From an uncultured virus (IMG/VR IMGVR_UViG_3300032227_001252) (lineage: Duplodnaviria; Heunggongvirae; Uroviricota; Caudoviricetes), in the IMG/VR virus record IMGVR_UViG_3300032227_001252: DNA of 64,000 nucleotides; one strand, written 5' to 3'. The notes beneath the pieces are model-generated. The model was not told the origin of the DNA. It did no database searches and worked only from the letters and a program-made list of their open reading frames with translations. How positions within the stretch are numbered: position 1 is the stretch's first letter; each line of letters begins with the position of its first letter. The translations under genes and the position numbers were made by a program. Shown one piece after another: positions 1 to 59,618 of the stretch.

Positions 1-36
1 GATCACGCCAGACCTCTCTACTCACGGAGCCTCACC

Positions 37-501
37 ATGAACGTCCTACCCTTCCTCTTCCTCTTCCCCCTCGGCGTGGCCTGCGGCAGTGAGGATGGAA
101 GTCTCGCCCTCTACACCAGTCCCGACGGTGGCAAGGAACTCAACTACGTGCCGTGCGCGGACATGGCTCTGGACACTGCAAGTGACGAGAACTCGATCAC
201 TGACCTCGCAGGAACTGGCTGGGTCAGCGGGGACGTGCAACTCGCCCTCAACAACCCCGAAGGGATGTGGAGTGACGGTTGCAGCGGGGGCCACATCCCC
301 GCCCCGTTTGCAGTGTCTGGGGGCAACTTCGAGTGGGACGCTCGCTCCCACGAGGTCGAACCCCAGCCGCTGAAGGTTTCCGGTTTCGTAGTGAGTCGGG
401 ATGCCCTCTGCACGTCCTTCCTATCGCCCGAGGGAGAACTGTATTGGGGGCCGATGCTGTTCTCCGCCACCGACAATATCGAAATCGCGTGGTGCGACTG
501 A
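37..501 (+). CDS. Hypothetical protein, possible lipoprotein
   Basis: 154 aa; GGAG upstream; hydrophobic N-terminus ending LGVAC (lipobox-like). Confidence 0.6.
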   Translation: MNVLPFLFLFPLGVACGSEDGSLALYTSPDGGKELNYVPCADMALDTASDENSITDLAGTGWVSGDVQLALNNPEGMWSDGCSGGHIPAPFAVSGGNFEWDARSHEVEPQPLKVSGFVVSRDALCTSFLSPEGELYWGPMLFSATDNIEIAWCD

Positions 502-23865: not shown

Positions 23866-24567
23866 ATGTTCGGTGCACCTCTCACCTCCCCCGACGCTGG
23901 CCCGATCCCCGGCGTTCCGATGGAGCAGCCCAAGAACCTCTTCCGCTTCGGCGAGCAGACGATCTGGTCCACGCAGTACCACGCGTCGGGCGCCCCGATC
24001 GCCTCGGGCACCTTCCGCCTCTTCACGACCCCCCTCGGTCAGGTCGGCCAGGGCTTCAACCAGGCTCTCTCCATCGGTGAGACCAACCTGAAGGAAGGCG
24101 GCCGCGTGCCCAGCGGCGTCGCATATGACGTCTTCGGCGTCGCATGCCAGGTCGAGGAGTCGTCCACGCTCAACGAGCAGAACGGCGTCGCCACTCTCAA
24201 CCTCCCGGTCAACAGCCCGGAGGCGGTCGGCAACCTCGTCAACATCATCCAGAACGGCATCCTGAGCTGGGACTTCACCCAGACCCAGGTCGACATCTGC
24301 CCGATCACCCTCGCGGGTGCCGGCGGTGGCGCGTTCGGTGCGGTTGCGACGGCTGACGCCGGCACCCCTGTCACGACCGGTCACATGAACAACGGCGCCG
24401 GCGGCGTGTGGATGTATCGCAAGCACCCCGTCGCGCTCCCGGGCACGACGACCTTCGCGATCGTCCTCCGCTACGGCTCCCGCGCGGCGACCATCGGTGC
24501 GAACGGCTCTTGCGCCGTCCGCGTCACGCTCCTCGGCTACTACAAGAACGTGATCGAGATTGGGTAG
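23866..24567 (+). CDS. Candidate major capsid protein (single jelly-roll-like)
   Basis: 233 aa, beta-rich; strongest codon bias; pyrimidine-rich leader plus CAGGAG; followed by a terminator. Fold is inferred, not shown. Confidence 0.55.
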   Translation: MFGAPLTSPDAGPIPGVPMEQPKNLFRFGEQTIWSTQYHASGAPIASGTFRLFTTPLGQVGQGFNQALSIGETNLKEGGRVPSGVAYDVFGVACQVEESSTLNEQNGVATLNLPVNSPEAVGNLVNIIQNGILSWDFTQTQVDICPITLAGAGGGAFGAVATADAGTPVTTGHMNNGAGGVWMYRKHPVALPGTTTFAIVLRYGSRAATIGANGSCAVRVTLLGYYKNVIEIG

Positions 24568-24616: not shown

Positions 24617-24662
24617 AAGAAGGCCCACTCCGAAGGCAACTTCGGGGTGGGTTCTTCGTTTT
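24617..24662 (+). terminator. Intrinsic terminator
   Basis: Stem CCCACTCCGAAG-GCAA-CTTCGGGGTGGG followed by TTCTTCGTTTT. Confidence 0.8.
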
Positions 24663-24718
24663 GGCCTTGCGCGGTACGAGGGAAGCGGGTAGTTTCTGCT
24701 GAAGGAGGATTTCAGCAG

Positions 24719-25486
24719 ATGCGCATGTGGAAGCCGGAAGATGAGGACGCAGAAGCGTTGTCGAGAGAAGGTGTGGAAGTTTGGTCACCCGTTGAAGAGG
24801 CGCCGGGTCGCTACTTTGTCAGCAATCTCGGCAATGTCGCCAGCGCTGCACAGACTCGCGGCGCGCCGCGTCTCATGACGCTGACGCAAATGCCGTCCGG
24901 GTACCTCAGCGTGGGTCTGGTGAAGTCGGTCGGGGAGAAGGCAGCTTTCCGGCTGGTGCACAAACTGGTGGTTCAGGCGTTCCGGGGGGACAAGCCCACC
25001 CTTGAACACACGGACGTGAGACACAAGGACAGGAACAAGACGAACAACCGTCTACTCAACGTGGTCTGGGGCACCCGCAGTGAGAACATGCTGGATGTCT
25101 GGGAACACCGCAAGACTGGCACTTCAGGCACACCTTCGGAAGTCCGGGATCCTGGGATGTACGTAGGCGACACGAATGACGTCCGACTCCTCACGGTCGG
25201 GCTCGAACTGCACCGAGAAGGCAAGCTCAACACCGCAGATCTCGCACGGCTCTGGGGGTGCTCAGACGACGTAGCGTTCAACATCGTCCACGGTAAAAGG
25301 AAGGCTCACTGCGCGCAGACGGGCGCTGTGCCGACGAAGAAGTACCGCAGCCCGGAGCAGAAGGCCGCCATCTCTGAACTCGTCGCCGCGGGCAAGGGCT
25401 TCAAGGAGATCAACGAGGCCCTCGGTGAGACACTCACCGCCCAGGACGTGTACTACTACCGCTCGAAGGCTGCCGCGAAGAAGTGA
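24719..25486 (+). CDS. NUMOD4-HNH homing endonuclease
   Basis: WSPVEEAPGRYFVSNLGNV (NUMOD4); VHKLVVQAF...VRHKDRNKTNNRLLNVVWGTRSEN (HNH); SD AAGGAGG. Confidence 0.9.
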   Translation: MRMWKPEDEDAEALSREGVEVWSPVEEAPGRYFVSNLGNVASAAQTRGAPRLMTLTQMPSGYLSVGLVKSVGEKAAFRLVHKLVVQAFRGDKPTLEHTDVRHKDRNKTNNRLLNVVWGTRSENMLDVWEHRKTGTSGTPSEVRDPGMYVGDTNDVRLLTVGLELHREGKLNTADLARLWGCSDDVAFNIVHGKRKAHCAQTGAVPTKKYRSPEQKAAISELVAAGKGFKEINEALGETLTAQDVYYYRSKAAAKK

Positions 25487-25555: not shown

Positions 25556-26236
25556 ATGCCGTACGACCAGTTCGGCCGCCCGATCCCCGGCGGCGCACCC
25601 ACTCACGAACCCCACTACAACTATGGCCAGGCAGAGTCCGGCCATGGGTACGGGGACGCGTCCGGGATGGGCGGAGGCCCCCACGAGGGCTATCGTCAGG
25701 CTCTGCTTGCGATGCCGTCCGCGGGACAGCTCGGTGGACCCGGCCCTGTGCCGTTCGTCCGTTACCCCTTCTTCCCGACCGCGCCCTTCTACAGCACGAA
25801 CCCCAATGTGGGGTATCAGACCCGGTTCTACTCGACGGGAGTCCAGTACACGGACGCGGACTACACGGTCGGTTCGGAGATGATCCGGACGATCCAGTTC
25901 GACATCCCGTGCCGTCTCGTGGCGTTCAACGGCTCCGCACTCTACTACTTCGGCAGCCCGGCCGTGCCCGCGGCACTGCCGCTGGGTGTCAAGCCGAACG
26001 ACACCTACCTGTTCCGTGGCGAGTACACGACGGGCGACAAGCTCCACATCGCAGCCCGTCTCGGCTCCACGGTCGTGGGCTCTGACGAGAATCCTGGCGA
26101 GATCGGCGGAACCGGCTACACCATCGACGCCGGCGCCTCGTTCGTGATCGGCATCACGCCGCTCATCGCCAACCTTCGCATTGACGTCACCCTCGTCTGC
26201 CTCGAGATGCGCGGTCCGCGAAACTTCTCCCGGTAA
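25556..26236 (+). CDS. Beta-rich structural protein (second capsid-like protein candidate)
   Basis: Gly-rich leader with YG/MG motifs, then a beta-strand pattern. Confidence 0.6.
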   Translation: MPYDQFGRPIPGGAPTHEPHYNYGQAESGHGYGDASGMGGGPHEGYRQALLAMPSAGQLGGPGPVPFVRYPFFPTAPFYSTNPNVGYQTRFYSTGVQYTDADYTVGSEMIRTIQFDIPCRLVAFNGSALYYFGSPAVPAALPLGVKPNDTYLFRGEYTTGDKLHIAARLGSTVVGSDENPGEIGGTGYTIDAGASFVIGITPLIANLRIDVTLVCLEMRGPRNFSR

Positions 26237-26245
26237 GAGGTCCCC

Positions 26246-26869
26246 TTGCCCCCCTCGAACATCCCGCCGTACCAGATGCGTCAGTTCCCGGGGCAACCGC
26301 TTCCGGGGACAGACGGCAACTACGAGACCGGGAGCATGTTTCAGAACCCGGCTGGGACGATGCCGTTCCCGGCGCCGTTCAACATGCCGTACGCGCAGTG
26401 GCAGTCGGCCAGGACGCCTCTCAACTGGACGAACCCGGGGTCTCTCGACGCCGGGTACGTCACCGCGGCCTACTGGTCGTCTCCGCTGTTCGACCTTCGG
26501 CCGGAAATCAAGAGCGCGGACGGTTCCAAGGCTTCTGGCGTCCCGATCTGGGGTTCTGGCGGCAGGAAACTGTGGGTTCAGGTGGACGGGCTCCTCAGCG
26601 TGACCGACGGCGTGGTGGCGACTGCGGAGCTGTACGTGGTCTCGCGCGAGTACTCGAACATCTTCGACCCGAATCAGGTTCAGCGTGTTCTTGCGGACGC
26701 AGACATCAGCGCGGACTGGGCTTCTGGAACGAACCAGCCGCCCAGCATCATTCTGAGCTTCAACCCGATCGGATCCGGGTACTCGGTGCGTTACTGGCGT
26801 TGCGAGCTGGCGTTCCGACGTCTCGACCGCGTCACCCACCCTCTGGCCATTTCGGCGGCGTTCTACTGA
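26246..26869 (+). CDS. Beta-rich structural protein
   Basis: TTG start after GAGG; in structural operon. Confidence 0.6.
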   Translation: MPPSNIPPYQMRQFPGQPLPGTDGNYETGSMFQNPAGTMPFPAPFNMPYAQWQSARTPLNWTNPGSLDAGYVTAAYWSSPLFDLRPEIKSADGSKASGVPIWGSGGRKLWVQVDGLLSVTDGVVATAELYVVSREYSNIFDPNQVQRVLADADISADWASGTNQPPSIILSFNPIGSGYSVRYWRCELAFRRLDRVTHPLAISAAFY

Positions 26870-26870
26870 T

Positions 26871-27287
26871 ATGCCCCTCAACCGCACCCCACTCACCGGC
26901 AATCAGATCGTCGCAATGGCGAACGTGTCGCTGCAGCGCAACTACACGCTGCAGGGCGCCGCCGTCGTCGGCCAGAACACGTTCGTCATTGTCAATGAAC
27001 TGAACGTCCTCGGCCTGCCCTCGCTCACGTACTGGGTGCGGCTCAACTCGGGCAACCCGAGCATCGTCTTCACGCCCCTGTTCTCGGTGCAGAACACCAC
27101 CGTAGGCGGCACGACGACTGTTCCAGACTGGCTGCCGTTCACGAACGGATCCGTGCTCGTGCCCGGCAACGTGTTCACCTTCATCGTCCGTTCCGCTGTA
27201 GCGAACGCTGCGGTGGAGTTCACGATCCCGGGCGCGATCCCCGCAGCAACCGTCAACGTTGACGTTGTCATCACGGCAGGTGGCTGA
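26871..27287 (+). CDS. Small beta-rich structural protein
   Basis: V/T/N-rich, few charged residues; coupled. Confidence 0.6.
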   Translation: MPLNRTPLTGNQIVAMANVSLQRNYTLQGAAVVGQNTFVIVNELNVLGLPSLTYWVRLNSGNPSIVFTPLFSVQNTTVGGTTTVPDWLPFTNGSVLVPGNVFTFIVRSAVANAAVEFTIPGAIPAATVNVDVVITAGG

Positions 27288-27814
27288 TGCCGCTCAATCC
27301 CGCGTCCTCAACTCTGGGGCTGGCGCCCATTCAGTTCGCCTACGTCGCTACTGACCTGGCTGTGCGCGCGTGGGTGTTCCCCACCAACCGAGCACAAACC
27401 ACGTTCCAGTGGCCGTCGTCAAACACGCGCCAGATCGTGATCTTGAACACGGGTAACGCTCCTCTTCTGTTCGGCCTTCAGGGGTACTCCGACAGCACGC
27501 AGTTGCCGGGTCAGGCTACCGTCGGACTTGCAGAGCCCTACGCCCTGCCCGCGATTGCGTACCCGACGGCTATCGGCGCCGGACCCGTGCCTGTTGAGGG
27601 CAACAACTGCACGCGCATCCCTGCAGGAGCCTCATTCAGCATCGACCTGCTGTCCTTCGAAGAGCGTGGCAACTTCGTGCCCATCAGCCCCCTCGCGTTC
27701 GGCGGGCCGACGCTGCTGAAGACGGCCTTCCCGACCTACTTGCTCTTCTTCAGCTCCGTGGGCGGGAACACGACTGCTGACCTCACCTACGTCAACAAGT
27801 TCGGGACGTTCTGA
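27287..27814 (+). CDS. Small beta-rich structural protein
   Basis: TGATG coupling; QIVILNTGNAPLLFG strand pattern. Confidence 0.6.
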   Translation: MPLNPASSTLGLAPIQFAYVATDLAVRAWVFPTNRAQTTFQWPSSNTRQIVILNTGNAPLLFGLQGYSDSTQLPGQATVGLAEPYALPAIAYPTAIGAGPVPVEGNNCTRIPAGASFSIDLLSFEERGNFVPISPLAFGGPTLLKTAFPTYLLFFSSVGGNTTADLTYVNKFGTF

Positions 27815-27876: not shown

Positions 27877-30800
27877 ATGCCAGCGCCCAAGGTCGGAGAT
27901 CGCGTCGTTGAAGGTCGCCGTTTTGGCGAGGTCGTCGCCCTACGCCCCCAGAACATGGTGGACGTGGTGTTTTCCGATCTGGACTACCCGATCCGTCGCC
28001 CCGCAGGAGCGCTCACTGTGATGCAGCGGAACCCGAAGCCCAAGATGCCCGTGTTCATCGCAGCGGTGCTCACGCCCGATGCGAAGAAGAAGCTGTATCG
28101 CTGGTGGTCGACTCAGCCCCTGGCACCCGACCCGCTTCCCATCACGAAGTCCACTCACATGACCATCCAGTTCCGCCCCTCGTTGGCGGATGTGGCTGCT
28201 GCGCCGATCGGCTCTGACGTCATGCTGCAGATCACGGGCTGGGCCGCGGACAACCAGATTCAGGCGGTTTCCGTCAAGCCGCAGGGCGTCGGCTCTGCGA
28301 ACGCGGTGCCGCACGTGACGTTCGCCATCAAGGATGCTTCTGTCGCTCCGAAGCTCTCGAACGACCTGTTCGTGACGCCGGGCGTGAAGAAGAAAGAGGT
28401 CGAGGGCCCCCTTCTCGCTGCCCGCGTGGGCTGGAGCGACGGCGGGACGTACCACTACGAGATGCCTGAGGGTGTGCAGAGCAACCCCGGCCCGCGGGGC
28501 GGCCTGACGGCTCGCGAACGCGAGCAGCTCGAGGGCTCTGCCTTCGCTCTGCCCGGCCGCCGCTGGCCGATCAACGACCGCCGTCACGCCGTCATCGCGA
28601 TGCAGTACATGCTGCGCGGCTTCGGCAGCGCGTCGGACTACCCCTCCATCCTCAAGGCGATCGCCAAGCGCTACCCCATGTCGGACAAGCGCAACGCCGA
28701 GATCTGGACGTTCTACGGGAAGCACAAGCAGAGCTTGGGCCGCCGCAAGATCGCCGCGAACCCCAGCACGGATCTCGCTGCTGCCAGCAAGTATCTGGAA
28801 GTGGCGTACGATGACGCGCCCGCCTACTTCGCAGCCGAGCCCCTCAGCGTGAAGATCAGGGGAAAGCAGAGTCAGTTCGAGGGTCGGTGGGTCATGCCCG
28901 GCGGGCCCCTCTCCCGCGTGTCGGCTGTGTTCGGCGAGGCTGTTGCTAACTTCATGGCGGACAAGTTCAGGGGTGGCGAGAAGAACTATCGCCCCACGAG
29001 GGCAGACCGCGAGGCCGTCTTCGAGCGCGTGAACCGCTCTTCTGGCTCCCCGTTCACGTCGCTGGAGGACTTCGAGCGTCAGCAGAAGCGTGCATTTGAG
29101 CGCTTCGAGAAGTTCATGAATGCCTTCCACGCAGCGCCTCCCGCCGTACAGCGCGAACTCACGACGACGCTTCAGTTGAGGACCCCCCTTCGTAAGGGTG
29201 TCATCGACCTGCACACGAACCCGGCCGAGGATGTCTACGACCCTGCCAAGGAGCAGTTCCGCTCCGTAGTGCAGGGCGTGTACGAGAGCCAGGTTCGCAA
29301 GTCCCTGAGACTGCCCTACAACGCACCCTTCACGGATGCGCGCGGGCACCGCTTGGACTCTTCCCTCGACGACGGGGCGAAGCGCAAGCTGCTTTCCAGC
29401 GCATACGCCATCGCGACCCGTCAGGGCCAGAAGCACGGCTGGCTCATGCCCGGCACACAGACGCCGACAGAAAAGGGGCAGGCACGCGCGTTCGAGAGGC
29501 TCTCTCAGCAGCAGGCGGAGCATGCTGCCCAGAACCGAATGGACTACGAGCGCACGCTCGGTGCCGCCCGCAAGAGTGGCTACTACCGTGTCGTCGCCGA
29601 AGAAGTCACCACCGGCTCGGGGCGTAAGGCGCTCCAGTACAAGGTTCAGCCCACCCCGCCTCGGGAGGCAGGTCTCCCCGCCTACCGCCTCTCGCAGCGT
29701 GCTGCGGAGCAGGACGCCGCCAAGGCCGAGCGGTTTCGTTCCTCCGCGCCCTCCCAGGCCCGTCTTCGAATGAATCCTGACCGCACCAAGCGTCGTGAGC
29801 AGTCCCCCGGGACGCAGGGGGAGCTGGAGTACATGGCGCGGATGGAGGATTTCCTCGATAAGCCGGTCGCGGAAGCCCGCGAGGCTTTCCGCTGGGACAT
29901 TGACAACCATGTTCGAGTCGAAAGCTCCCTGCGCAGGCAGATCGCAGAGAAGGGTCTCGACTGGGACGATGACAGCGAGCAGAAAGCTGTCGCCGTGTCG
30001 CGCCGCATCGTGAATCGCAACCGGGCCTTCTTGGAGAAGAAGTATGAGGCCCGCGAGTCCGACCTCGAAGACATGAAGCCCTCCATGGACGAGAAGCTCA
30101 CCTCGGCGCAGCGAATCGCCCCTGACCCCATGCTCTTCAAGCAGATCCAGCACATTCGAACCTTGCAGCGTCGCGACGACCCTCTGTTCCGCGATGCGAT
30201 GGCGAAGTGGATCCCTCACCGAAACATGCTCGACATCGAAACCGTTCGCGCCATGACTGAAGGCGCGAAGCTGGGCGGTATTGCAGGTAGCGGCAAGAAC
30301 CGCAAGGACTCCGACGAGACCGGACGTGTATTCATCCCTGCGCTCCAGGCCTTGAACGCCGCGTCTCGCAGCCGCGGTGAGCCCGAACTCACCGACGACA
30401 CGTTCGCGGTCATTGAGCCGAAGCAGGCGATCGACGACTTCCTTCGAGCGACCTCCACCGAGGAGGAGCTCGCAGGAAAGATCCGTCTTGACGACATCCC
30501 CTTGGAGCTGCGTTCCAACATCGTCGAGGAGCGCGACAAGAAGGGTCGCGTCACCAAGATGACCCTCGTCCTGCCCTACATGCAACTGGAGAAGGGCGTG
30601 ATCGCCCCCGTCGAGGGCGAAGGGAAGAGCGAGCAGCAGGAAAACGCGCTCGATCGTGCCCAGGAACAGCGTGAGACGAAGAAGCTCATCCAGACCGTTC
30701 AGCGTGGCTTTGACGCGAACGAACCCTTCTGGGACGTTGAACGCACGGTGCTCCTCTACTTCCCCAAGAAGGACGAGAAGGGGCAGCCGGTCGTGGGCTC

Positions 30801-32220
30801 GTCAGGCTACCCGCTGAAGCAGTACGTCAACTACACCATGCGCCCCAAGCAGACGCTGGAGCAGGTGTTCGAAGAGACTGGCTTCCGTCCGTTCGCTGTT
30901 CCTTCTGGCAAGGAAGGGCAGGTCTCGATCGAGCGCCCTGAGATCCAGATGCGCTATGTGATGTACATCCCGCGCGTCCGTCGCGCGATTGTCCGCAAGC
31001 TCAAGACCGGTATCGCTCAGACCCTGTCTACGGCGGACATCCAGAACCTCAAGGCCGTGCGCTCTCCCAAGGGTCTGGGTCTTCGCCTTGAGCAGCTCCC
31101 GGAGCAGACGGGCCGCCGTAAGCGCACGACGCCGTACTGGTCGGATCGAGGCATCACCGATCCCGACATCGTGTCTGTGTACCCCAGCATGATCCTGTCC
31201 AAGTACTTCGTCGTGACCGACGAAAACGGCATCGGGGCTGAGGGCAAGAAGGCCGCCGCCGACACCGACCTGCTGGAGTCTGCTGCGACCACGGCCCAGC
31301 GCGCCGCAGAGATGGCGGAAGCGGTCGGAACGGTCGACGCGCTGACGGTCGAAGGCGTGCCCATCGAGCAGCTCATGCTGCAGCGTCAGCGGGAACGCAA
31401 CGCAGCCGCGCGTGCAAAGGGGAAGACCACCAAGGACAGCGGTCGAGTCTTCCTCTCGCCTGAGAACAACTGGGTGAAGTACAACAAGCTCTCGAACTCC
31501 TTCCGTCGGCTCCGTAAGGGCCGCTGGGACGAGAACGCGAACGAGGGCCGCGGCGGGTACGTCGATGGCGTCGAGATCCCCCAGTACGACGTGTTCTACA
31601 CCCTGAGCGCGCCCCTGGCGTACCTCACCTTCAAGTACTTCAACACTCCCGACGCGCTCCCGCACGTCGAGGCGAAGATGGAAGACGTGGCGAACGTCTT
31701 GAAAGTCCTCGCCCCCAAGCGCGTGCCCAACAGCAAGACCCGCGAGGTTGAGGAGTACGAGCAGGTTGAGCCTGTGCGCGTGGGCTCAATCGCTGTCATC
31801 GGTCTCGATCAGAAGCTGGCTGACGTGCTGCGTCGCCCCTCCGAGCGTCCTGTCCGTAGTCGGGCCGAGACCCTTGGCGGTCTCTCCGTGTCCGAGAGCG
31901 AGTTCATGATCTCGCCGCTCAACCTCCTGATGGTCGGTGACCTTGTCACGGCTCAGGAGCAGGCGCGCAAGCACGCTGCGATGCGCGAGCAGGGTCTCGA
32001 AGACAGGTTGAGCCTGACGCTGAAGTTGCAGGAGCAGGCGCACAGGGAAGGCACCCGCGTCGGCGAGTTCCAGGGCCGTCAGGTCTACGCTCTCCCTTCC
32101 CCGAAGGCGCCCGAGGCCGCGACGCCTGTCGGAGAGTCTGACTTCGACCTCGATGATCTGCTCGGCAACCCCCGCCCGCGCCGGTCCGCAGTTCACCGCA
32201 CGTCCCGAAAGAGGTACTGA
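27877..32220 (+). CDS. Modular polyprotein (1447 aa): SH3-like module, 2H phosphoesterase-like module, DUF6582-like module, unknown modules
   Basis: HMTIQF and HVTFA (two HxT motifs); FALPGRRWPINDRRHA; modules bounded by NP motifs. Confidence 0.75.
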   Translation: MPAPKVGDRVVEGRRFGEVVALRPQNMVDVVFSDLDYPIRRPAGALTVMQRNPKPKMPVFIAAVLTPDAKKKLYRWWSTQPLAPDPLPITKSTHMTIQFRPSLADVAAAPIGSDVMLQITGWAADNQIQAVSVKPQGVGSANAVPHVTFAIKDASVAPKLSNDLFVTPGVKKKEVEGPLLAARVGWSDGGTYHYEMPEGVQSNPGPRGGLTAREREQLEGSAFALPGRRWPINDRRHAVIAMQYMLRGFGSASDYPSILKAIAKRYPMSDKRNAEIWTFYGKHKQSLGRRKIAANPSTDLAAASKYLEVAYDDAPAYFAAEPLSVKIRGKQSQFEGRWVMPGGPLSRVSAVFGEAVANFMADKFRGGEKNYRPTRADREAVFERVNRSSGSPFTSLEDFERQQKRAFERFEKFMNAFHAAPPAVQRELTTTLQLRTPLRKGVIDLHTNPAEDVYDPAKEQFRSVVQGVYESQVRKSLRLPYNAPFTDARGHRLDSSLDDGAKRKLLSSAYAIATRQGQKHGWLMPGTQTPTEKGQARAFERLSQQQAEHAAQNRMDYERTLGAARKSGYYRVVAEEVTTGSGRKALQYKVQPTPPREAGLPAYRLSQRAAEQDAAKAERFRSSAPSQARLRMNPDRTKRREQSPGTQGELEYMARMEDFLDKPVAEAREAFRWDIDNHVRVESSLRRQIAEKGLDWDDDSEQKAVAVSRRIVNRNRAFLEKKYEARESDLEDMKPSMDEKLTSAQRIAPDPMLFKQIQHIRTLQRRDDPLFRDAMAKWIPHRNMLDIETVRAMTEGAKLGGIAGSGKNRKDSDETGRVFIPALQALNAASRSRGEPELTDDTFAVIEPKQAIDDFLRATSTEEELAGKIRLDDIPLELRSNIVEERDKKGRVTKMTLVLPYMQLEKGVIAPVEGEGKSEQQENALDRAQEQRETKKLIQTVQRGFDANEPFWDVERTVLLYFPKKDEKGQPVVGSSGYPLKQYVNYTMRPKQTLEQVFEETGFRPFAVPSGKEGQVSIERPEIQMRYVMYIPRVRRAIVRKLKTGIAQTLSTADIQNLKAVRSPKGLGLRLEQLPEQTGRRKRTTPYWSDRGITDPDIVSVYPSMILSKYFVVTDENGIGAEGKKAAADTDLLESAATTAQRAAEMAEAVGTVDALTVEGVPIEQLMLQRQRERNAAARAKGKTTKDSGRVFLSPENNWVKYNKLSNSFRRLRKGRWDENANEGRGGYVDGVEIPQYDVFYTLSAPLAYLTFKYFNTPDALPHVEAKMEDVANVLKVLAPKRVPNSKTREVEEYEQVEPVRVGSIAVIGLDQKLADVLRRPSERPVRSRAETLGGLSVSESEFMISPLNLLMVGDLVTAQEQARKHAAMREQGLEDRLSLTLKLQEQAHREGTRVGEFQGRQVYALPSPKAPEAATPVGESDFDLDDLLGNPRPRRSAVHRTSRKRY

Positions 32221-33003
32221 ATGGCCACCATCACTTCGCCCCAGGGCGCTCGCTTCAAGGTGTTGTCGAGGGGCTTTCAGGTCAGCACCTTCCCTCCGTA
32301 CCTCGCCAGCCCGTTCTGGCCGACGGCGCCCTACGTTCCGGCTCCGAAGTTCGTGATCATGCCCCAGAACGTGCGCTTCGTTCCGGAGTACAACTGGGGC
32401 TGCCCGGATCACATGCCGGATCCCAACTGCGCATGCCGGCGGGGGGATGACAGCGATGAGTTCGGGGCTCTCGGCGATGCCGCTGCCCGTAAGCGCCGCG
32501 CCAAGAAGAAGGCCGCGAAGCTGCGCGCGAAGGCCATCAAGATCGAGAAGAAGGCAGGCATCGTCAAGAAGGTGAAGAAGGCCGTAGCCCCGAAGAAGGA
32601 CGGGAAGTCACTCTTCCAGAAGGCTTCCGCCGTACCGGCTGCGCCCGCACAGCAGGAGGCTCAGGAGGAGCCTGCAGAGGCGCTCCCCACGCCCGAGGGC
32701 GTGCCTCAGAACGCCGAAGAAGGCTCGAGCAACATGAAGCTCATCATCGGCGGGACTCTCGCGCTGATGGCCGCCATCGGTATCGGCTTCGCGATGCAGC
32801 AGAGCAGGAAGAGGTCTGCCTACGCGACCGCACCCGCAGCCCCGATGCCGACGATGGTGCCTGCTCGTGCCCCGGTCGCAACCCTCCCTGCGCCCGCACC
32901 CGTGAGGACTGCAGACGAAGTGGCCGCGGAGTTCGCCGAGATGCCGATCTCTGCGAACCCCCGCGGCCGGGCGATGTTGACTGTTCGGCCCTCGCGGGTC
33001 TGA
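32221..33003 (+). CDS. Membrane protein with Lys-rich segment
   Basis: EFGALGD motif; TM LIIGGTLALMAAIGIGFAM; C-terminal SANPRGR. Confidence 0.75.
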   Translation: MATITSPQGARFKVLSRGFQVSTFPPYLASPFWPTAPYVPAPKFVIMPQNVRFVPEYNWGCPDHMPDPNCACRRGDDSDEFGALGDAAARKRRAKKKAAKLRAKAIKIEKKAGIVKKVKKAVAPKKDGKSLFQKASAVPAAPAQQEAQEEPAEALPTPEGVPQNAEEGSSNMKLIIGGTLALMAAIGIGFAMQQSRKRSAYATAPAAPMPTMVPARAPVATLPAPAPVRTADEVAAEFAEMPISANPRGRAMLTVRPSRV

Positions 33004-38795: not shown

Positions 38796-38882
38796 GCGCT
38801 TCATCTCCGCATGAAGTGTAGGAAACGAGTCGCGATTCCCGAACGCGGATGTGCTCTCGAAAGTTTTTCTCGCCTGGAGTGC

Positions 38883-38911
38883 TTGACGGTCTTGGCCAGG
38901 GGGAGTACCTT
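38883..38911 (+). promoter_or_regulatory. Sigma70-type promoter for the DGQHR gene
   Basis: TTGACG-17 bp-TACCTT. Confidence 0.6.
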
Positions 38912-38959
38912 CACACCACCTGGCGCTTCTGCTCAACCCTGCCAGGCGGAGTAAACACA

Positions 38960-40255
38960 ATGTCGACCCTCGCTGACCTCGTCCAGTCCAACAAGCCCAC
39001 GGGCCACCGCCTCATCGAGATCTTCTGCCGCCCCAGCAACAACCTTGGCTCCATCACGCTCACGACCTCCATCGACGTCGGTACCTTCCTCAACCAGTCG
39101 AAGGTCGGCAACGACGCGGCTCTCGGCCACGTCACCCAGCGTCCGCTGAACGAGAAGCACGCCACCGGCATGGCTGCCTTCAACCTGTCCGCGCTCATCA
39201 ACTACACCGTGAAGGACTACGAAGCGAAGCACGGCCCGATCCCCACCGAGATCGTCGAGGTGTTTGACCACGTCTCGCGCAAGTCCTACTACTCGTGGGC
39301 TCCCCTCGTCTGCTCGGTCCGCTTCCCCTTCTCGGAAGTCCTCGCCACGCGCTACGCCACGGGCGAGTACAGCGTCAAGCTGCGGCCCGACCAGCTCCTC
39401 TGGGTGGTGGACGGCCAGCACCGCCGCGTGGGCCTCGAGTTCACCCGCAAGTGGATCGAGGAGATCTCCACCACGCGCAAGTACCCCCGCGTGAAGGACG
39501 CCTTCCCCCCGGGCCTCCGTCAGGTCGGTGACGAGGCGCTCCTGTTCTGGCGCATGGCGGATGAGAAGTTCCAGTCCGAGTTCTCCGTCACCACGGAGGT
39601 GCACTTCGGCATGAGCATCGACCAGGAGCGGCAGCTCTTCTACTTCCTCAACGACCTCGGCCGCGCCGTCCCCGCCGCCATCAGCCAGGCCTTCGATCAG
39701 GACAACCCCATCAACCTCTTCACGCAGACCCTCGTCGCCGACCTGTTCCCCGCGGACTCCGTGGAGATGGTGAAGCCGCAGGTCAACTGGGAGGACGAGA
39801 AGTGGATCCGTCTCGACAGCCTCAACGGCATCAACGCCCGCCTGCTCCTGAACCACGGCAGCATCGACAACGCCAAGGCGTCGGTGGTCAACCCGCGGCT
39901 CGATGAGGCGCGCGCCTTCTGGGAGGTCGTCACCAAGATCCCCGGCGTCTTCGACCGCAAGACCTCCCTCGCGGCCCAGCCCGCGATGCTCAAGGCCATT
40001 GCCAAGTGCTTCTACGACCTCAAGTGGGCCCGCGGGTCCGGTCGCAAGGCTCTCCCCGCTGACATCGCGGAGAAGTTCCTCGCCGCCCTCCCGACCGTGG
40101 ACTTCAGCCACACCAACCCGCTGTTCCAGTCGGCTGGTGGGAACAAGAACATCGGGTCCCTGCACGCGGACGGCACCTTCCGCTTCAGCCCGTCGCACAA
40201 CGAGATCGTTCCTCTTCTCGCGGTTGTGCTCCGCCAGTTGACCCAGACGCTGTAG
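38960..40255 (+). CDS. DGQHR-domain (DndB/ParB-like) protein
   Basis: QRPL...WVVDGQHRR...QERQLFYFLN. Confidence 0.85.
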   Translation: MSTLADLVQSNKPTGHRLIEIFCRPSNNLGSITLTTSIDVGTFLNQSKVGNDAALGHVTQRPLNEKHATGMAAFNLSALINYTVKDYEAKHGPIPTEIVEVFDHVSRKSYYSWAPLVCSVRFPFSEVLATRYATGEYSVKLRPDQLLWVVDGQHRRVGLEFTRKWIEEISTTRKYPRVKDAFPPGLRQVGDEALLFWRMADEKFQSEFSVTTEVHFGMSIDQERQLFYFLNDLGRAVPAAISQAFDQDNPINLFTQTLVADLFPADSVEMVKPQVNWEDEKWIRLDSLNGINARLLLNHGSIDNAKASVVNPRLDEARAFWEVVTKIPGVFDRKTSLAAQPAMLKAIAKCFYDLKWARGSGRKALPADIAEKFLAALPTVDFSHTNPLFQSAGGNKNIGSLHADGTFRFSPSHNEIVPLLAVVLRQLTQTL

Positions 40256-47255: not shown

Positions 47256-47798
47256 ATGGCCAACTTCGTCGAAGTCCAGTCTTCCGTCAGCGTCCAGTTC
47301 TTCGCCGCTGATGCAGGCGTCGTTCAGCAGAACCTCGTCGCCAACCCTCTCACCGTCCTCGCCAACCGCTCCTACAACGTGGCTGACTTCGCCGTGTGCG
47401 TGCTTGTCGGCGGCGGCGCAGGCAACCCCGGCGTCGACCAGGCTCGCATCAACATCGACGAGTACACGACCGCTGGCGCACTCGTGACGGCTCTCGGTAC
47501 GGTGCCGGCAGACAACGCCAACGCCAACACCTGGATCCGCCCGGCGAGCGCCACCATCACCGTGGCTCCGGCGGCTGCAACTGCGGCCCTGATCGGCAGC
47601 GCGACTGTGGCTCGCGGCAACAACCTCCGCATCTCTGCTTCGTCCTCGGGCGCCAGCGTGGCGTCCAACGTCCGTGCTCTCGGCACACTCCGAGTCCTTC
47701 CGGGCAACCGCTACAGCGCGACCACCTTGACGACCGCTTACTACGCGAACAACACCGCGTCGGGCGCGCAGGGCAGCTCCGCGACTCAGTCCATCTAG
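47256..47798 (+). CDS. Beta-rich structural protein, paralog A
   Basis: SD CAGGAG; ends LPGNRYSA...AYYANN.ASGAQGSSA.QSI. Confidence 0.75.
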   Translation: MANFVEVQSSVSVQFFAADAGVVQQNLVANPLTVLANRSYNVADFAVCVLVGGGAGNPGVDQARINIDEYTTAGALVTALGTVPADNANANTWIRPASATITVAPAAATAALIGSATVARGNNLRISASSSGASVASNVRALGTLRVLPGNRYSATTLTTAYYANNTASGAQGSSATQSI

Positions 47799-47828: not shown

Positions 47829-48311
47829 ATGGCCAACACCATCTCCGTCCGTTCCTCCCAGGTCGTTCAGTTCAACCTCGACACCAACGGCGCTGGCGCC
47901 ACCGCGCCCAAGCTCACGCTGCTCTGCAACCGTGACTACAACGTGGTCGACTACCTCGTTCTCGTCACGGCGGCCGCGGGCGGCGCAGGCAACCTGACCG
48001 TGCAGTCCACGGACATCCAGGCGGTGCCCGTCACCACGACGATCGGTTTCGTGACCGGCGTCGCCGCGAACGCCTACCAGCGCCCCACTCAGAGCAACGT
48101 CGCTGCCAACACCGGTTACCTCCCGGCCTCGGCAGTCGTCGTTCGCGGCGGCACGCTCACTCTCGCGTCCACCGACGCCGGTGACTTCAGCCAGGGCTAC
48201 CTGACGATCCTCCCGGGCAACCGCTACAGCGCAGTGACGTCGGGCACGGCGTACTACGCCAACAACGTGACCTCGGGCGCTCAGGGCTCCAGCGCAGTCG
48301 CTTCGATCTGA
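47829..48311 (+). CDS. Beta-rich structural protein, paralog B
   Basis: Shares NRxYNVxD and the whole C-terminus with 47256-47798. Confidence 0.75.
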   Translation: MANTISVRSSQVVQFNLDTNGAGATAPKLTLLCNRDYNVVDYLVLVTAAAGGAGNLTVQSTDIQAVPVTTTIGFVTGVAANAYQRPTQSNVAANTGYLPASAVVVRGGTLTLASTDAGDFSQGYLTILPGNRYSAVTSGTAYYANNVTSGAQGSSAVASI

Positions 48312-55504: not shown

Positions 55505-55819
55505 TCAGGAAGTAGAGGTTGGGGAGGTGGGGGTAGCACTCTGGAGAGCAGCCTCGACCTTGCGGTACGAAGCGGCGTGCCAATAGGTGCACGCCCCGCC
55601 GAGCGCGGCGATGAACAAACCGTAGATCGGCTTATCCTTCATGAGCAGCAGGCCCGCCACAGCGACCGCGGGACCTCCGACTGTATAGGCGAACTTCCTC
55701 TGATGCTGCAGCACGCGCTCAGACTCGACGTCGAGGCAGAGTGCAGTGATGTTCCCTGCGGCATCACGCTGCGCGGTAACCTGTGGCGACGCGGGGATCA
55801 TGTAGAGGATGGAGTTCAT
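55505..55819 (-). CDS. Small membrane protein
   Basis: Two hydrophobic segments; TGATG coupling. Confidence 0.7.
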   Translation of the reverse strand: MNSILYMIPASPQVTAQRDAAGNITALCLDVESERVLQHQRKFAYTVGGPAVAVAGLLLMKDKPIYGLFIAALGGACTYWHAASYRKVEAALQSATPTSPTSTS

Positions 55820-59516: not shown

Positions 59517-59618
59517 GGCGGTCTCCGGGCAGGGACGCCTCTGCGTATCCAGGGGTTTGCCAGTTGACAAACGGGCAGGGCTGTAGCGAGGGCGGGCGGC
59601 GGAGGTTATGAGGTCAGC

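What the first reader, a model, noticed from the sequence alone, without database searches (positions are those of the whole stretch)
27877..32220. 1447-aa polyprotein whose recognisable domains start and stop at NP motifs
Seen: NP codons at 28030 (QRNP), 28483 (QSNP), 28759 (AANP), 29218 (HTNP), 29773 (RMNP) and 32167 (LGNP). The first interval is an SH3-like barrel. The second holds both HxT motifs of a 2H phosphoesterase-like domain. The third holds a DUF6582-like module (FALPGRRWPINDRRHA). Coincidence of motif and domain edges is the best internal evidence that NP is a module separator. Known: some viral 2H phosphoesterases degrade signalling oligonucleotides (T4 Acb1, coronavirus ns2). 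Inference: a cassette of virion-delivered effectors, possibly anti-defence.
Basis: partly seen in the sequence, partly recalled or inferred. Interest (0 to 1): 0.82.

Follow-up and report, generated by a model that had tools for sequence, protein, structure and literature searches.

The report
Asn-Pro seams in a viral polyprotein
A 1447-residue protein of an uncultured large bacterial virus is a chain of swappable modules, including an RNA/nucleotide phosphodiesterase, joined at strictly conserved Asn-Pro pairs in floppy linkers that look like cut-here marks, although no cutting has been shown.

Summary
ORF 27877-32220 is real and has Asn-Pro (NP) at residues 52, 203, 295, 448, 633 and 1431. 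The count alone is unremarkable: 6 against 2.7 expected, and NP is enriched about 1.4-1.5x in control phages. Position and conservation carry the case. NP is kept in 21-35 of 23-35 distinct homologue contexts at each of the five internal seams. Relatives gain, lose and swap modules exactly at these seams. In an AlphaFold2 model of residues 1-640, four NP lie in the segments with pLDDT below 50 and the fifth in a dip. Module 1-52 is a KOW/Tudor-like barrel. Module 53-203 is a 2H phosphoesterase nearest to CNPase (Z 12.2) with both HxT motifs. Module 204-295 resembles DUF6582 only below threshold. Module 449-633 is a widespread unnamed family that also occurs alone. Residues 634-1431 were not folded. 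The protein ends in an acidic tip, NP and an Arg-rich tail. The gene closes an operon headed by a very conserved jelly-roll (capsid-like) protein. Most likely the seams are processing sites read by one trans-acting factor, probably a protease (about 0.4). Cleavage, virion delivery and anti-defence roles are untested. I found no description in print.

The parts
27877..32220 (+). Whole ORF, 1447 aa (P0001), last large gene of a tightly packed + strand operon
   Evidence: GC3 0.82; 25 homologues in metagenomes
27877..28032 (+). Module A, aa 1-52: small beta-barrel of the KOW/Tudor/SH3-like type
   Evidence: AF2 pLDDT 83-96; VIA 4zn3_A Spt5 KOW Z 9.4, rmsd 1.3, 54 aligned, model 1..54
28030..28035 (+). 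Seam 1, N52-P53 (VMQR-NP-KPK)
   Evidence: NP in 25 of 25 distinct homologue contexts; pLDDT dip to 73 in block 51-60
28033..28485 (+). Module B, aa 53-203: 2H phosphoesterase, CNPase/tRNA-ligase CPD-like. HxT motifs are H94-M-T96 (nt 28156-28164) and H146-V-T148 (nt 28312-28320)
   Evidence: VIA 2xmi_A Z 12.2, model 54..189; Foldseek CNPase E 6.6e-4; Pfam PF08302 24.8 bits against cutoff 23; each motif kept in 20 of 22 homologues
28483..28488 (+). Seam 2, N203-P204 (GVQS-NP-GPRGG)
   Evidence: NP in 27 of 27 contexts; pLDDT <50 at 201-207. L009, L012 and L023 join module A directly to module C here
28486..28761 (+). Module C, aa 204-295: small mostly helical module with the FALPGRRWPINDRRHA core, distantly DUF6582-like
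   Evidence: phrog_16160 E 1.1e-7 at 209-241; no Pfam hit; stand-alone relatives hit DUF6582 below threshold; pLDDT 83-96
28759..28764 (+). Seam 3, N295-P296 (KIAA-NP-STD)
   Evidence: NP in 21 of 23 contexts; the 2 misses have NP a few residues on; pLDDT <50 at 289-316
28762..29220 (+). Module D, aa 296-448: optional helical module, disordered to about 335, helices 347-433
   Evidence: Absent exactly from seam to seam in P0002, P0011, P0012, P0014 and others; pLDDT 58-82. The weak Pfam ART hit (E 0.066) spans seam 4 and is rejected
29218..29223 (+). Seam 4, N448-P449 (DLHT-NP-AED)
   Evidence: NP in 35 of 35 contexts; pLDDT <50 at 434-450
29221..29775 (+). Module E, aa 449-633: most conserved module, alpha/beta, no named family; also found alone and in many other architectures
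   Evidence: pLDDT 84-97; profile A3 finds 311 representatives at E<=1e-3 in 1.84 billion proteins; stand-alone ORFs in L018/L019, L031, L027 and L014
29773..29778 (+). Seam 5, N633-P634 (RLRM-NP-DRT)
   Evidence: NP in 24 of 25 contexts; pLDDT <50 at 633-640
29776..32169 (+). Module F, aa 634-1431: large body without any NP. It has a charged variable part (634-~895), a conserved core (~896-1300) and an acidic-hydrophobic tip (FDLDDLLG)
   Evidence: BLASTP ranges. Invariant residues in A4 hold no Cys, His, Ser, Asp or Glu. No Pfam or PHROG hit. Not folded
32167..32172 (+). Seam 6, N1431-P1432 (DLLG-NP-RPR)
   Evidence: NP within the last 32 residues in 28 of 91 family proteins >=500 aa, against 14% expected
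32170..32217 (+). Arg-rich C-terminal tail, aa 1432-1447 (7 R/K in the last 15 residues)
   Evidence: P0003/4/9/10 instead end at the acidic tip (..ELDDF) with no NP and no tail
23866..24567 (+). Operon neighbour: 233-aa very conserved jelly-roll protein, candidate capsid protein
   Evidence: GC3 0.90; 853 clusters, the best 120 at >=56% identity. AF2 pLDDT 65.7, pTM 0.65. VIA best is SPV1 capsid 6oj0_T Z 7.6, rmsd 3.2, 136 aligned; other viral jelly rolls Z 5-7. Foldseek only E>=6e-3
25556..27814 (+). Four conserved small ORFs (226, 207, 138 and 175 aa) between the jelly-roll gene and the polyprotein, syntenic in many relatives
   Evidence: tblastn synteny in L006-L013, L023-L029, L036; alignment A5
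32221..33003 (+). Downstream 260-aa ORF starting at the base after the polyprotein's stop; it also ends in ..MPISA-NP-RGRAMLTVRPSRV
   Evidence: homologue follows the polyprotein in L005
7853..14923 (+). Second NP-punctuated giant protein (2356 aa), with an internal double seam DFTGLN-NP-RGRMRRSRVVRRR-NP-WGDD
   Evidence: 7 of 8 NP conserved in all 4 homologues at ~48% identity
6903..7856 (+). Transglutaminase-like (papain-fold) ORF with a Cys114-His163-Glu182 triad, overlapping the start of the 2356-aa gene; candidate seam-reading enzyme (lead only)
   Evidence: Pfam Transglut_core E 8.7e-4 here and E 4.4e-11 in the homologue on G001:C152; alignment A7

Best explanation
The ORF encodes a modular 'beads on a string' protein of an uncultured large dsDNA virus of bacteria. 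It consists of six independently folding, evolutionarily exchangeable modules:
- a KOW/Tudor-like barrel;
- a 2H phosphoesterase;
- a DUF6582-like helical module;
- an optional helical module;
- a widespread conserved module E;
- an 800-residue body.
A short Arg-rich tail follows. The modules are joined by disordered linkers that each carry an invariant Asn-Pro. Upstream of it the linkers tend to be basic at -4/-2, hydrophobic at -3 and small at -1.

Shown:
- the modules and their borders;
- the conservation of the seams;
- exchange of modules at the seams;
- the 2H fold with both catalytic HxT motifs;
- the position at the end of an operon headed by a jelly-roll, capsid-like gene.

Inferred:
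- The seams are read by one trans-acting factor, most likely a virus-encoded maturation protease. It would cut the chain into separate proteins and release short Arg-rich peptides, as adenovirus, ASFV, T4 and phiKZ do with their core or internal proteins.
- The protein is made late and packaged.
- The 2H module acts on 2',3'-cyclic phosphate RNA ends or on nucleotide signals early in infection.
For: Borders:
- AF2 pLDDT <50 only at the seams.
- Fold matches start and stop at the seams: model 1..54 and 54..189.

Exchange at seams:
- P0002 lacks aa 296-448 exactly.
- P0021-25 have other N-termini and then modules 203-295 and 448-633.
- L009, L012 and L023 join A directly to C.
- Segment test: 22% against 1.5-1.8%.
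- Endpoint test: 32% against 4% within 3 aa.

Module E across the wider family:
- 138 of the 150 best representatives were parsed; 12 rows whose match began after profile position 10 were dropped.
- 81 of 107 internal copies have NP within -5..+3 of the module start.
- 8 of 31 N-terminal copies begin with a short M..RRNP-type leader.

A common reader:
- Unrelated modules share the upstream tendency. At -4 R/K is 40%, at -3 LIVMF 62%, at -2 R/K 47% and at -1 A/G/S 53%. Backgrounds are 16%, 23%, 16% and 24%. This comes from 120 distinct contexts.
- There is little preference after the Pro.
- The pattern is non-prime-side specificity with a hydrophobic P4 and small P2, if the cut is after Asn. 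This last reading is my inference.

Protein-level signal:
- AAYCCN occurs in frame 76 times, against 10 and 10 in the other frames and 15-16 on the antisense strand.
- Eight synonymous hexamers are used.

Separable tail:
- 28 of 91 family proteins have NP followed by an Arg-rich tail at the C-terminus.
- P0003/4/9/10 end just where the others have NP.
- Double seams NP-(4-13 basic residues)-NP recur.

Context:
- The operon is conserved next to the polyprotein.
- It is headed by a jelly-roll protein.

2H module.
Against: - No cleavage product, peptide or protease has been shown.
- No recognisable protease family lies in the window (68 ORFs), apart from a weak transglutaminase-like hit. None lies in 74 ORFs of related loci, nor in 100 of 115 ORFs of a 92.7-kb relative, except that same family and an M15 wall peptidase.
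- Most known endopeptidases do not cut before Pro (own knowledge).
- The upstream pattern is a tendency, not a strict motif, and varies between module families.
- Stand-alone module proteins keep seam remnants at their ends: MRRNP-type starts and NP-plus-basic tails. A docking tag explains this at least as well as a cut site.
- The close relative on G001:C152 has only one NP in its 892-aa counterpart, and NP is only 1.4x enriched overall there.
- The capsid assignment of the neighbour rests on a mid-confidence model and Z below 8.
- Only one module has a recognisable enzyme fold, so 'effector cassette' is largely unproven.
- Module F, 55% of the protein, was not folded.
Confidence: 0.4

Rival explanations
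1. The seams are not cut. The basic-x-Asn-Pro peptide is a short docking or packaging tag, or a hinge. It would tether each module to DNA, to the capsid interior or to a packaging receptor, and the chain would work as one multi-domain protein.
For: - Stand-alone relatives of module E and unrelated window proteins keep the motif at their very N-terminus. MRRNP or MARRNP start ORFs 53981-55474(-), 55819-56742(-) and 62191-62670(+).
- 8 of 69 window ORFs have NP within the first 9 residues, against about 2 expected by my hand calculation.
- Arg-rich tails after a C-terminal NP.
- No protease found.
- X-Pro bonds resist most proteases (own knowledge).
Against: - A hinge needs no invariant dipeptide.
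- Strict Asn and strict Pro amid otherwise variable linkers suggest chemistry at that bond.
- Some relatives end exactly where the others carry NP plus tail, as expected for a removable piece.
- Modules occur as separate genes elsewhere, so they can work apart.
Confidence: 0.3
2. The seams cut themselves or are cut chemically. The Asn side chain attacks its own carbonyl (succinimide) and breaks the Asn-Pro bond, as in asparagine peptide lyases (FlhB/YscU Asn-Pro-Thr-His, reovirus mu1). This could happen slowly and spontaneously, or be triggered by assembly or by a bound partner.
For: - Both residues are invariant while the flanks vary.
- Asn-Pro is the bond cut in FlhB/YscU, and Asn lyases cut directly after their Asn (PMC3207474, passages read).
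- Pro after Asn blocks the competing deamidation route (own knowledge).
- This would explain why no protease gene is found.
Against: - All described Asn lyases act in cis inside a folded site with a nearby Asp or Glu (PMC3207474, passages). Here the seams are predicted to be disordered.
- The upstream residue preferences point to an outside reader.
Confidence: 0.1
3. The transglutaminase-like enzyme (ORF 6903-7856) acts on the seam Asn side chain. It would deamidate it, giving a labile Asp-Pro bond, or cross-link it to a Lys of a core or capsid protein, so that seams are anchoring points.
For: - The Cys114-His163-Glu182 triad is conserved with the homologue on G001:C152, which scores Transglut_core E 4.4e-11.
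- The gene overlaps the start of the 2356-aa NP-rich protein in the window and precedes a 950-aa protein with 6 NP in the relative.
- Enzymes of this fold act on Gln or Asn side-chain amides, for example transglutaminases and PNGase (own knowledge).
Against: - It lies 20 kb from the polyprotein.
- The family also holds plain cysteine proteases, so it fits the main explanation equally well.
- No test of binding was possible (tool not available).
- No co-occurrence survey was done.
Confidence: 0.05
4. NP is just a common linker or helix-cap dipeptide, and domain borders are natural recombination points. There would be no dedicated function. Alternatively, it is a 2A-like NPGP translational skip.
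For: - NP is enriched 1.4-1.5x in ordinary phage proteomes.
- 6 against 2.7 is not significant alone.
- Seam 2 reads NPGP.
Against: - NP is kept in 21-35 of 23-35 contexts per internal seam, amid variable linkers.
- Helices start 7 or more residues after the seams, so NP is not their cap.
- Only 1 of 6 seams has NPGP, and the residues before it are not conserved among homologues.
- 2A skipping is described for eukaryotic ribosomes (own knowledge; the papers were seen as listings only).
Confidence: 0.05

Closest known systems
Polyvalent proteins of phages and conjugative elements (Iyer, Burroughs, Anand, de Souza, Aravind 2017, PMC5512222; passages read)
   Same: - A giant phage-borne polypeptide combining unrelated domains, encoded next to virion genes.
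- The paper lists 2H phosphoesterase domains among the components.
- It predicts delivery with the DNA and release of domains by proteolysis.
- It notes extensive mosaicism.
   Different: - That work proposes cutting by built-in zincin-like (MPTase) peptidase domains and describes no junction motif ('linker' occurs 0 times in the text).
- Here every joint carries an invariant Asn-Pro.
- No peptidase domain is seen in the chain.
- Only one module has a known enzyme fold.
- The virus shows no tailed-phage hallmark genes in the 64-kb window or in a 92.7-kb relative.
Adenovirus core precursors (pVII, pX/mu) cut by adenain; ASFV pp220/pp62 cut at Gly-Gly-X (own knowledge; not read here)
   Same: - Jelly-roll-capsid dsDNA viruses whose core proteins are made as precursors and cut at a short motif with a hydrophobic P4 and small P2.
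- Release of a short Arg-rich peptide flanked by two sites resembles NP-RGRMRRSRVVRRR-NP.
   Different: - The motif is Asn-Pro, not Gly-Gly or Gly-X.
- No clan CE protease was found.
- The host is bacterial: peptidoglycan enzymes are present.
- Cleavage is unproven.
Prohead-protease substrates of T4 (gp21, cuts after L/I-x-E) and phiKZ/SPN3US (S/A/G-x-E): internal proteins, Alt, inner-body proteins (own knowledge; PMC10052503 and PMC5694885 seen as search listing and abstract only)
   Same: - One short motif recurs in many virion proteins: near N-termini, between parts of large proteins and near C-termini.
- The cargo includes enzymes injected into the host.
   Different: - A different motif.
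- No S77/S78-type protease, portal or HK97-fold capsid gene was detected.
- In those phages the sites do not delimit swappable cassettes.
Asparagine peptide lyases, MEROPS N6 (FlhB/YscU, Asn-Pro-Thr-His) and N7 (reovirus mu1) (PMC3207474, passages read)
   Same: The Asn-Pro bond is the one broken. A viral precedent exists.
   Different: - Those sites sit in a folded self-cleaving domain with an acidic helper residue, one per protein.
- Here there are six sites in disordered linkers between unrelated domains.
2H phosphoesterases: CNPase / fungal tRNA ligase CPD domain (PF08302); phage Acb1
   Same: - Fold match (Z 12.2 to CNPase, 7.5 to Acb1).
- Two H-x-T motifs.
- Pfam PF08302 above its cutoff when the module is scanned alone.
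   Different: - Compact form: 52 residues between the two His, and about 150 aa in total.
- Embedded in a polyprotein.
- Substrate unknown.
- It is nearer to the RNA-end-healing branch than to the anti-CBASS branch.

Membership tests
2H phosphoesterase superfamily | Two H-x-T/S-x motifs | tested here: met
   H94-M-T96-I and H146-V-T148-F. HMTI is kept in 20 of 22 homologues with this module, and HVTF/HITF/HVTY in 20 of 22.
2H phosphoesterase superfamily | Characteristic alpha+beta fold | tested here: met
   VIA 2xmi_A CNPase Z 12.2, rmsd 2.9, 135 aligned, model 54..189. Also Acb1 7t27_A Z 7.5, drCPDase 5h7f Z 7.0, 1fsi Z 7.0. Foldseek CNPase E 6.6e-4, prob 1.0. BFVD gives Acb1 and RNA-ligase hits at E about 1e-3.
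2H phosphoesterase superfamily | Curated family score (Pfam PF08302 tRNA_lig_CPD) | tested here: met
   24.8 bits against cutoff 23 for aa 53-203 alone. In the whole protein it scores 21 bits, below cutoff. 14 of 24 family members hit it.
2H phosphoesterase superfamily | Phosphodiesterase activity | not testable with these tools
   Needs an enzyme assay.
Polyvalent proteins (Iyer et al. 2017) | Two or more domains of disparate activity in one polypeptide of a phage or plasmid | tested here: inconclusive
   There are six structural modules, but only one (2H) has a recognisable activity.
Polyvalent proteins (Iyer et al. 2017) | Encoded beside virion genes, implying packaging and injection | tested here: inconclusive
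   Same operon as a jelly-roll, capsid-like protein. However Z is 7.6, the model pLDDT is 65.7, and there is no virion data.
Polyvalent proteins (Iyer et al. 2017) | Built-in processing peptidase (MPTase or other) | tested here: inconclusive
   No peptidase family in P0001 or in 24+57 relatives by Pfam. Module F was not folded.
Asparagine peptide lyases (N6/N7) | Cleavage directly after the Asn | not testable with these tools
   Needs protein chemistry.
Asparagine peptide lyases (N6/N7) | Scissile Asn held in a folded self-cleaving domain with an acidic helper | tested here: not met
   Seams lie in segments with pLDDT <50 between domains.
2A / StopGo peptides | D(V/I)ExNPGP consensus at each break | tested here: not met
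   Only seam 2 reads NPGP, and the residues before it vary among homologues (PVQP, KVEG, RRSR, VVRS...).
DUF6582 (PF20223) | Pfam score above the curated cutoff | tested here: not met
   No hit for aa 204-295 at E<=10. Stand-alone relatives L003, L038, L039 and L040 score 15-18 bits against cutoff 27.3.
Protease-matured core proteins of jelly-roll viruses (adenain-type) | Clan CE cysteine protease in the genome | tested here: inconclusive
   None in the 64-kb window or in the 92.7-kb relative by Pfam. The window is about a third of a 178-kb contig and the rest is not held.

The most novel reading that the evidence does not exclude
Asn-Pro is a genome-wide 'cut here' code of an undescribed lineage of large jelly-roll-capsid viruses of bacteria. 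One reader, a new kind of protease or an enzyme that triggers Asn-succinimide bond breakage, would dismantle cassette polyproteins inside the particle or the newly infected cell. This would free enzymes such as the 2H phosphoesterase together with short Arg-rich DNA-binding peptides. It would be a bacterial-virus counterpart of adenovirus/ASFV core maturation with a chemically different seam. The seam would also serve as the standard joint at which evolution swaps modules.
Probability: 0.2. Interest if true: 0.9.

Novelty: new variant of a known kind. Interest (0 to 1): 0.7.

Why it matters
If the seams are processing sites, this is a polyprotein strategy with a simple, readable punctuation mark in viruses of bacteria. 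Polyproteins of this kind are not part of the textbook picture there.

Practical consequences:
- Thousands of 'dark' giant viral ORFs could be parsed into functional units by eye.
- It would define a new protease specificity, or a new use of Asn-Pro bond chemistry.
- It would point to a set of packaged enzymes (here a CNPase-like 2H phosphoesterase) that act at the start of infection.

Even if the seams are not cut, they are a portable junction at which nature shuffles protein modules. That is of interest for protein engineering and for understanding how viral arsenals evolve.

The surrounding genome is itself unusual. It shows a jelly-roll capsid-like gene family with at least 853 clusters, no tailed-phage hallmarks, and contigs up to 178 kb.

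Tried and rejected
Searches that found nothing:
- tblastn of P0001, of module E and of the 233-aa neighbour against 50,697 GenBank phage records: no match.
- IMG/VR scans: none for the single protein. Only DUF6582-like minis for the alignment.
- Profile of the whole family against PDB sequences: only low-complexity hits. Profiles of the two neighbours: nothing.
- ESM Atlas on aa 634-1447: no usable hit.
- Pfam and PHROGs on single modules and neighbours: nothing beyond PF08302 and phrog_16160.
- Pfam on 57 further family proteins: only PF08302 once and DUF7831 twice. A second batch of 58 was not scanned.
- Search for a protease in related DNA: 74 ORFs of six loci and 100 of 115 ORFs of G001:C152. 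Nothing except Transglut_core and M15.

Rejected hits:
- Pfam ART hit (E 0.066, aa 397-464). It spans seam 4 and the region is modelled as helices.

- Foldseek and VIA lists for the 640-aa model are filled by modules A and B. Modules C, D and E are therefore barely tested: no Foldseek row below E 0.01 that is not 2H-like or barrel-like. This is no evidence of new folds.

Tools or data not available:
- The whole genome of the window is not held.
- Metagenome records cannot be searched whole.
- Complex prediction (transglutaminase-like ORF with a seam peptide) was not available.
- No PAE is returned by the tool, so borders rest on pLDDT and on fold-match ranges.

Literature:
- Searches for Asn-Pro seams in prokaryotic viral polyproteins found no such description.
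- No supplements were consulted.

Full report
**What is there.** ORF 27877-32220 on the + strand is open for 1447 codons. Its third-position G+C of 0.82 is typical of the window's genes. It closes a run of + strand genes with gaps of a few bases:
- 23866-24567;
- an HNH endonuclease at 24647-25486;
- 25556-26236, 26246-26869, 26871-27287 and 27287-27814;
- the ORF itself;
- 32221-33003, which starts at the base after its stop.

**Is it more than chance?** Not by number. Six NP against 2.66 expected from composition is unremarkable. NP is also over-represented in ordinary phage proteomes: odds 1.50 in 50 kb of T4 and 1.40 in phage L5, computed the same way.

In the window's 69 picked ORFs NP is the most over-represented dipeptide: 76 against 34.9, odds 2.19. 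The signal is at the protein level:
- AAYCCN stands in the reading frame 76 times, and 10 and 10 times in the other two frames.
- It occurs 15-16 times per frame on the antisense strand.
- Eight synonymous hexamers are used in relatives.

**The placement is decisive.** A word-indexed search found 25 relatives, all from metagenomes, on contigs up to 178 kb. A metagenome scan added 36 loci.

- At the five internal sites NP is kept in 25/25, 27/27, 21/23, 35/35 and 24/25 distinct sequence contexts, and at the C-terminal site in 3/4. The two misses at site 295 have NP a few residues on. In proteins lacking aa 296-448 the same NP aligns to both sites 295 and 448.
- BLASTP shows that relatives differ by whole inter-NP blocks. 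P0002 aligns over 1-300 and 443-1447, so it lacks 296-448. P0021-P0025 have other N-termini followed by 203-295 and 448-633. L009, L012 and L023 join block 1-52 directly to block 204-295.
- Of 4562 alignment endpoints at which both proteins continue for more than 40 residues, 32% lie within 3 residues of an NP against 4% of random positions. Within 10 residues the figures are 50% against 10%. The endpoints are not independent.
- Cutting 166 family proteins after every Asn of an NP gives 613 segments of 40 aa or more. Of 32949 segment-to-segment hits, 7362 (22%) cover at least 80% of both partners. Three random cuttings with the same number of cuts gave 491-573 of about 32-33 thousand, which is 1.5-1.8%.

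**Structure.** An AlphaFold2 model of aa 1-640 used alignment A2 with 38 rows. Mean pLDDT is 80.4. pTM is 0.37, as expected for beads on a string.

It has confident domains at 1-50, 58-200, 208-288 and 451-632, and a middling helical region at 336-433. Its only segments below pLDDT 50 are 201-207, 289-316/318-328/330-335, 434-450 and 633-640. These contain NP 203, 295, 448 and 633. NP 52 sits in a dip to 73.

With 12.5% of residues below 50, four of five NP falling there has a chance of about 0.001. This is my hand calculation. No NP lies inside a confident domain. The tool gives no PAE.

**The modules.**
- *A (1-52)* is a small barrel. The best matches are KOW, Tudor and SH3-like domains: Spt5 KOW 4zn3_A Z 9.4, rmsd 1.3, 54 aligned, model 1..54.
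- *B (53-203)* is a 2H phosphoesterase.
  - VIA gives mouse CNPase 2xmi_A Z 12.2, rmsd 2.9, 135 aligned, model 54..189. Phage Acb1 7t27_A scores Z 7.5, and three other 2H enzymes about Z 7.
  - Foldseek puts CNPase first at E 6.6e-4.
  - The viral library gives giant-virus RNA ligases and Acb1 at E about 1e-3.
  - Pfam tRNA_lig_CPD scores 24.8 bits against a cutoff of 23 for the module alone, and hits 14 of 24 family members.
  - The motifs H94-M-T and H146-V-T are each kept in 20 of 22 homologues.
- *C (204-295)* is a small, mostly helical module. It matches phrog_16160 of unknown function. It gives no Pfam hit. Four stand-alone relatives reach DUF6582 only below threshold.
- *D (296-448)* is optional and helical. 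The weak ART hit spans a seam and is rejected.
- *E (449-633)* is the most conserved part.
  - A profile of it (A3) finds 311 cluster representatives at E<=1e-3, and 183 at E<=1e-10, among 1.84 billion proteins. The hits range from 108 to 2767 aa and carry the module at the start, inside, at the end or alone.
  - I parsed 138 of the 150 listed; 12 whose match began after profile position 10 were left out.
  - 81 of 107 internal copies have NP within -5..+3 of the predicted module start, and several more have it within 10 residues.
  - 8 of 31 N-terminal copies begin with a short leader such as MIRRNP, MRGNP or MRRAAFNP.
- *F (634-1431)* has no NP. It has a conserved core at about 896-1300 and no invariant Cys, His, Ser, Asp or Glu. 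It could not be folded.

The chain ends FDLDDLLG-NP-RPRRSAVHRTSRKRY. Of 91 family proteins of 500 aa or more, 28 have NP within the last 32 residues, against 14% expected. It is nearly always followed by an Arg-rich tail. P0003, P0004, P0009 and P0010 stop at the acidic tip (..ELDDF) with neither NP nor tail.

**The seam motif.** From 120 distinct upstream contexts of seams that coincide with mosaic borders:

| Position | Residues | Seen | Background |
|---|---|---|---|
| -4 | R/K | 40% | 16% |
| -3 | L/I/V/M/F | 62% | 23% |
| -2 | R/K | 47% | 16% |
| -1 | A/G/S | 53% | 24% |

Positions after the Pro show little preference. The pattern is a tendency and differs between module families; only NP itself is constant.

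Read with Asn as P1, it is a hydrophobic P4 and small P2. That is the kind of non-prime-side specificity proteases have, and it recalls adenain. This reading is inference.

Double seams enclosing 4-13 basic residues recur. NP-RGRMRRSRVVRRR-NP lies in the window's 2356-aa protein, where 7 of 8 NP are conserved in all four homologues. Relatives show NP-KRRK-NP, NP-RRRRK-NP and others.

Eight of the 69 window ORFs have NP within their first nine residues. Three begin MRRNP or MARRNP. About two are expected by my hand calculation.

**Surroundings.** Neither PHROGs nor Pfam finds a terminase, portal, HK97-type capsid or tail gene among the window's ORFs.

A related 92.7-kb contig in a MAG (G001:C152) is syntenic with the window. 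It shows none of these either in 100 of its 115 ORFs.

The first gene of the operon (233 aa, GC3 0.90) belongs to a family of at least 853 clusters, the best 120 of them at 56% identity or more.
- Its AF2 model (pLDDT 65.7, pTM 0.65) is a beta sandwich.
- Its best matches are viral jelly rolls: SPV1 capsid 6oj0_T Z 7.6, rmsd 3.2, 136 aligned. Satellite panicum mosaic virus, HHIV-2, PBCV-1, HCIV-1 and P23-77 VP16 score Z 4.9-6.9.
- Foldseek gives only E of 6e-3 or more, including PRD1/PR772 P3.
- All Z are below 8, so this supports a jelly-roll fold and a capsid role only moderately.

Lysozyme, peptidoglycan-binding, SLT and M15 genes indicate a bacterial host.

**A candidate reader.** ORF 6903-7856 overlaps the start of the 2356-aa NP protein. 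Its homologue on C152 scores Transglut_core E 4.4e-11 and is fused to NUDIX. The pair share YGDC114DDMA, WSH163IY and E182-P-T, a Cys-His-acid triad.

This papain-fold family contains cysteine proteases as well as enzymes acting on Gln or Asn side-chain amides (own knowledge). It is a lead only. The docking test was not available.

**Mechanism and odds.**
- *Shown:* the borders, the exchange of modules at seams, the seam conservation, the 2H fold and motifs, and the operon context.
- *Inferred:* one outside factor reads the seams. I put cleavage by a trans-acting protease at about 0.4, self- or partner-triggered Asn-Pro lysis at 0.1, a docking tag or hinge without cutting at 0.3, side-chain chemistry by the transglutaminase-like enzyme at 0.05, and no function or a 2A-like skip at 0.05.
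- *Strongest points against cutting:* no protease has been identified, most proteases do not cut before Pro, and seam remnants are kept on stand-alone proteins.
- *Unproven:* packaging is supported only by context. An anti-defence role of the 2H module is possible, but the module is nearer to the RNA-end-healing CNPase/CPD branch than to Acb1.

**Comparison and novelty.** The architecture fits the polyvalent proteins of Iyer et al. 2017 (PMC5512222, passages read). That paper already lists 2H domains and predicts proteolytic release, but by built-in peptidases and without any junction motif. The processing logic resembles adenovirus/ASFV core maturation and T4/phiKZ prohead processing. The bond resembles that of the Asn peptide lyases (PMC3207474, passages read).

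Five full-text searches found no description of Asn-Pro seams in viruses of prokaryotes.

Earlier AI notes of this scan report the same seams in about ten other uncultured viral genomes, some called jelly-roll-capsid viruses. They show no cutting and no protease. They are leads and not independent evidence. The seams and the jelly-roll neighbour were tested afresh here.

Noticed in passing
window 7853-14923 (+): 2356-aa ORF with 8 NP, 7 of them conserved in all 4 homologues at ~48% identity. It has an internal double seam DFTGLN-NP-(13 Arg-rich residues)-NP-WGDD and a C-terminal ..VAA-NP-LRRRM-NP-RQREV. No Pfam or PHROG family.
   Followed up: partly
window 6903-7856 (+); L049:11614-13206: Transglutaminase-like ORF with a conserved Cys-His-Glu triad, overlapping the start of the 2356-aa gene. 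Its homologue in a 92.7-kb relative is fused to a NUDIX domain.
   Followed up: partly
window 23866-24567 (+): 233-aa jelly-roll protein with GC3 0.90 and at least 853 clusters in metagenomes. Two adjacent paralogues (P0232, P0263) lie on one 16-kb contig. No tailed-phage hallmark genes were found in the window or in the 92.7-kb relative, so this may be a large jelly-roll-capsid virus of bacteria.
   Followed up: partly
window 24647-25486 (+): HNH/NUMOD4 homing-endonuclease gene inserted between the jelly-roll gene and the next conserved operon gene. Endonuclease genes lie at the same place in L024, L026 and G001:C152.
   Followed up: no
window 53981-55474 (-), 55819-56742 (-), 62191-62670 (+): Three unrelated ORFs begin MARRNP or MRRNP. 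The 497-aa one has 8 NP (1.4 expected). The 159-aa one carries a C2H2 zinc finger (Pfam zf-C2H2 E 7.6e-11), which is unusual for a bacterial virus.
   Followed up: no
window 25556-26236 (+): 226-aa protein with a Gly/Pro/Gln-rich disordered N-terminal arm of about 65 residues. It is followed by a very conserved beta-rich domain (59-89% identity across loci of 40-68% G+C). It could be a second capsid protein.
   Followed up: partly
window 47256-47798 and 47829-48311 (+): Two adjacent paralogous small ORFs (MANF../MANT.. starts, shared ..NRYSA.T..TAYYANN..SGAQGSSA ends). They sit within a run of small ORFs starting MAN.., of unknown role.
   Followed up: no
window 38849-40255 (+): DndB-like protein (Pfam E 2.6e-18; phrog_36010 E 7e-50) with the highest GC3 of the window (0.91).
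   Followed up: no
window 58017-59978 (-): 653-aa ORF with DNA polymerase III alpha NTPase and finger domains only, a short form of the bacterial replicative polymerase. The relative G001:C152 carries a family A polymerase instead.
   Followed up: no
P0030 (aa 2371-2483), P0043 (aa 581-702): Two family members carry Pfam DUF7831 (E 6e-46 and 1.4e-34) near the C-terminus. In P0043 it is followed by ..DELAS-NP-YRRRRRRRRYGN.
   Followed up: no
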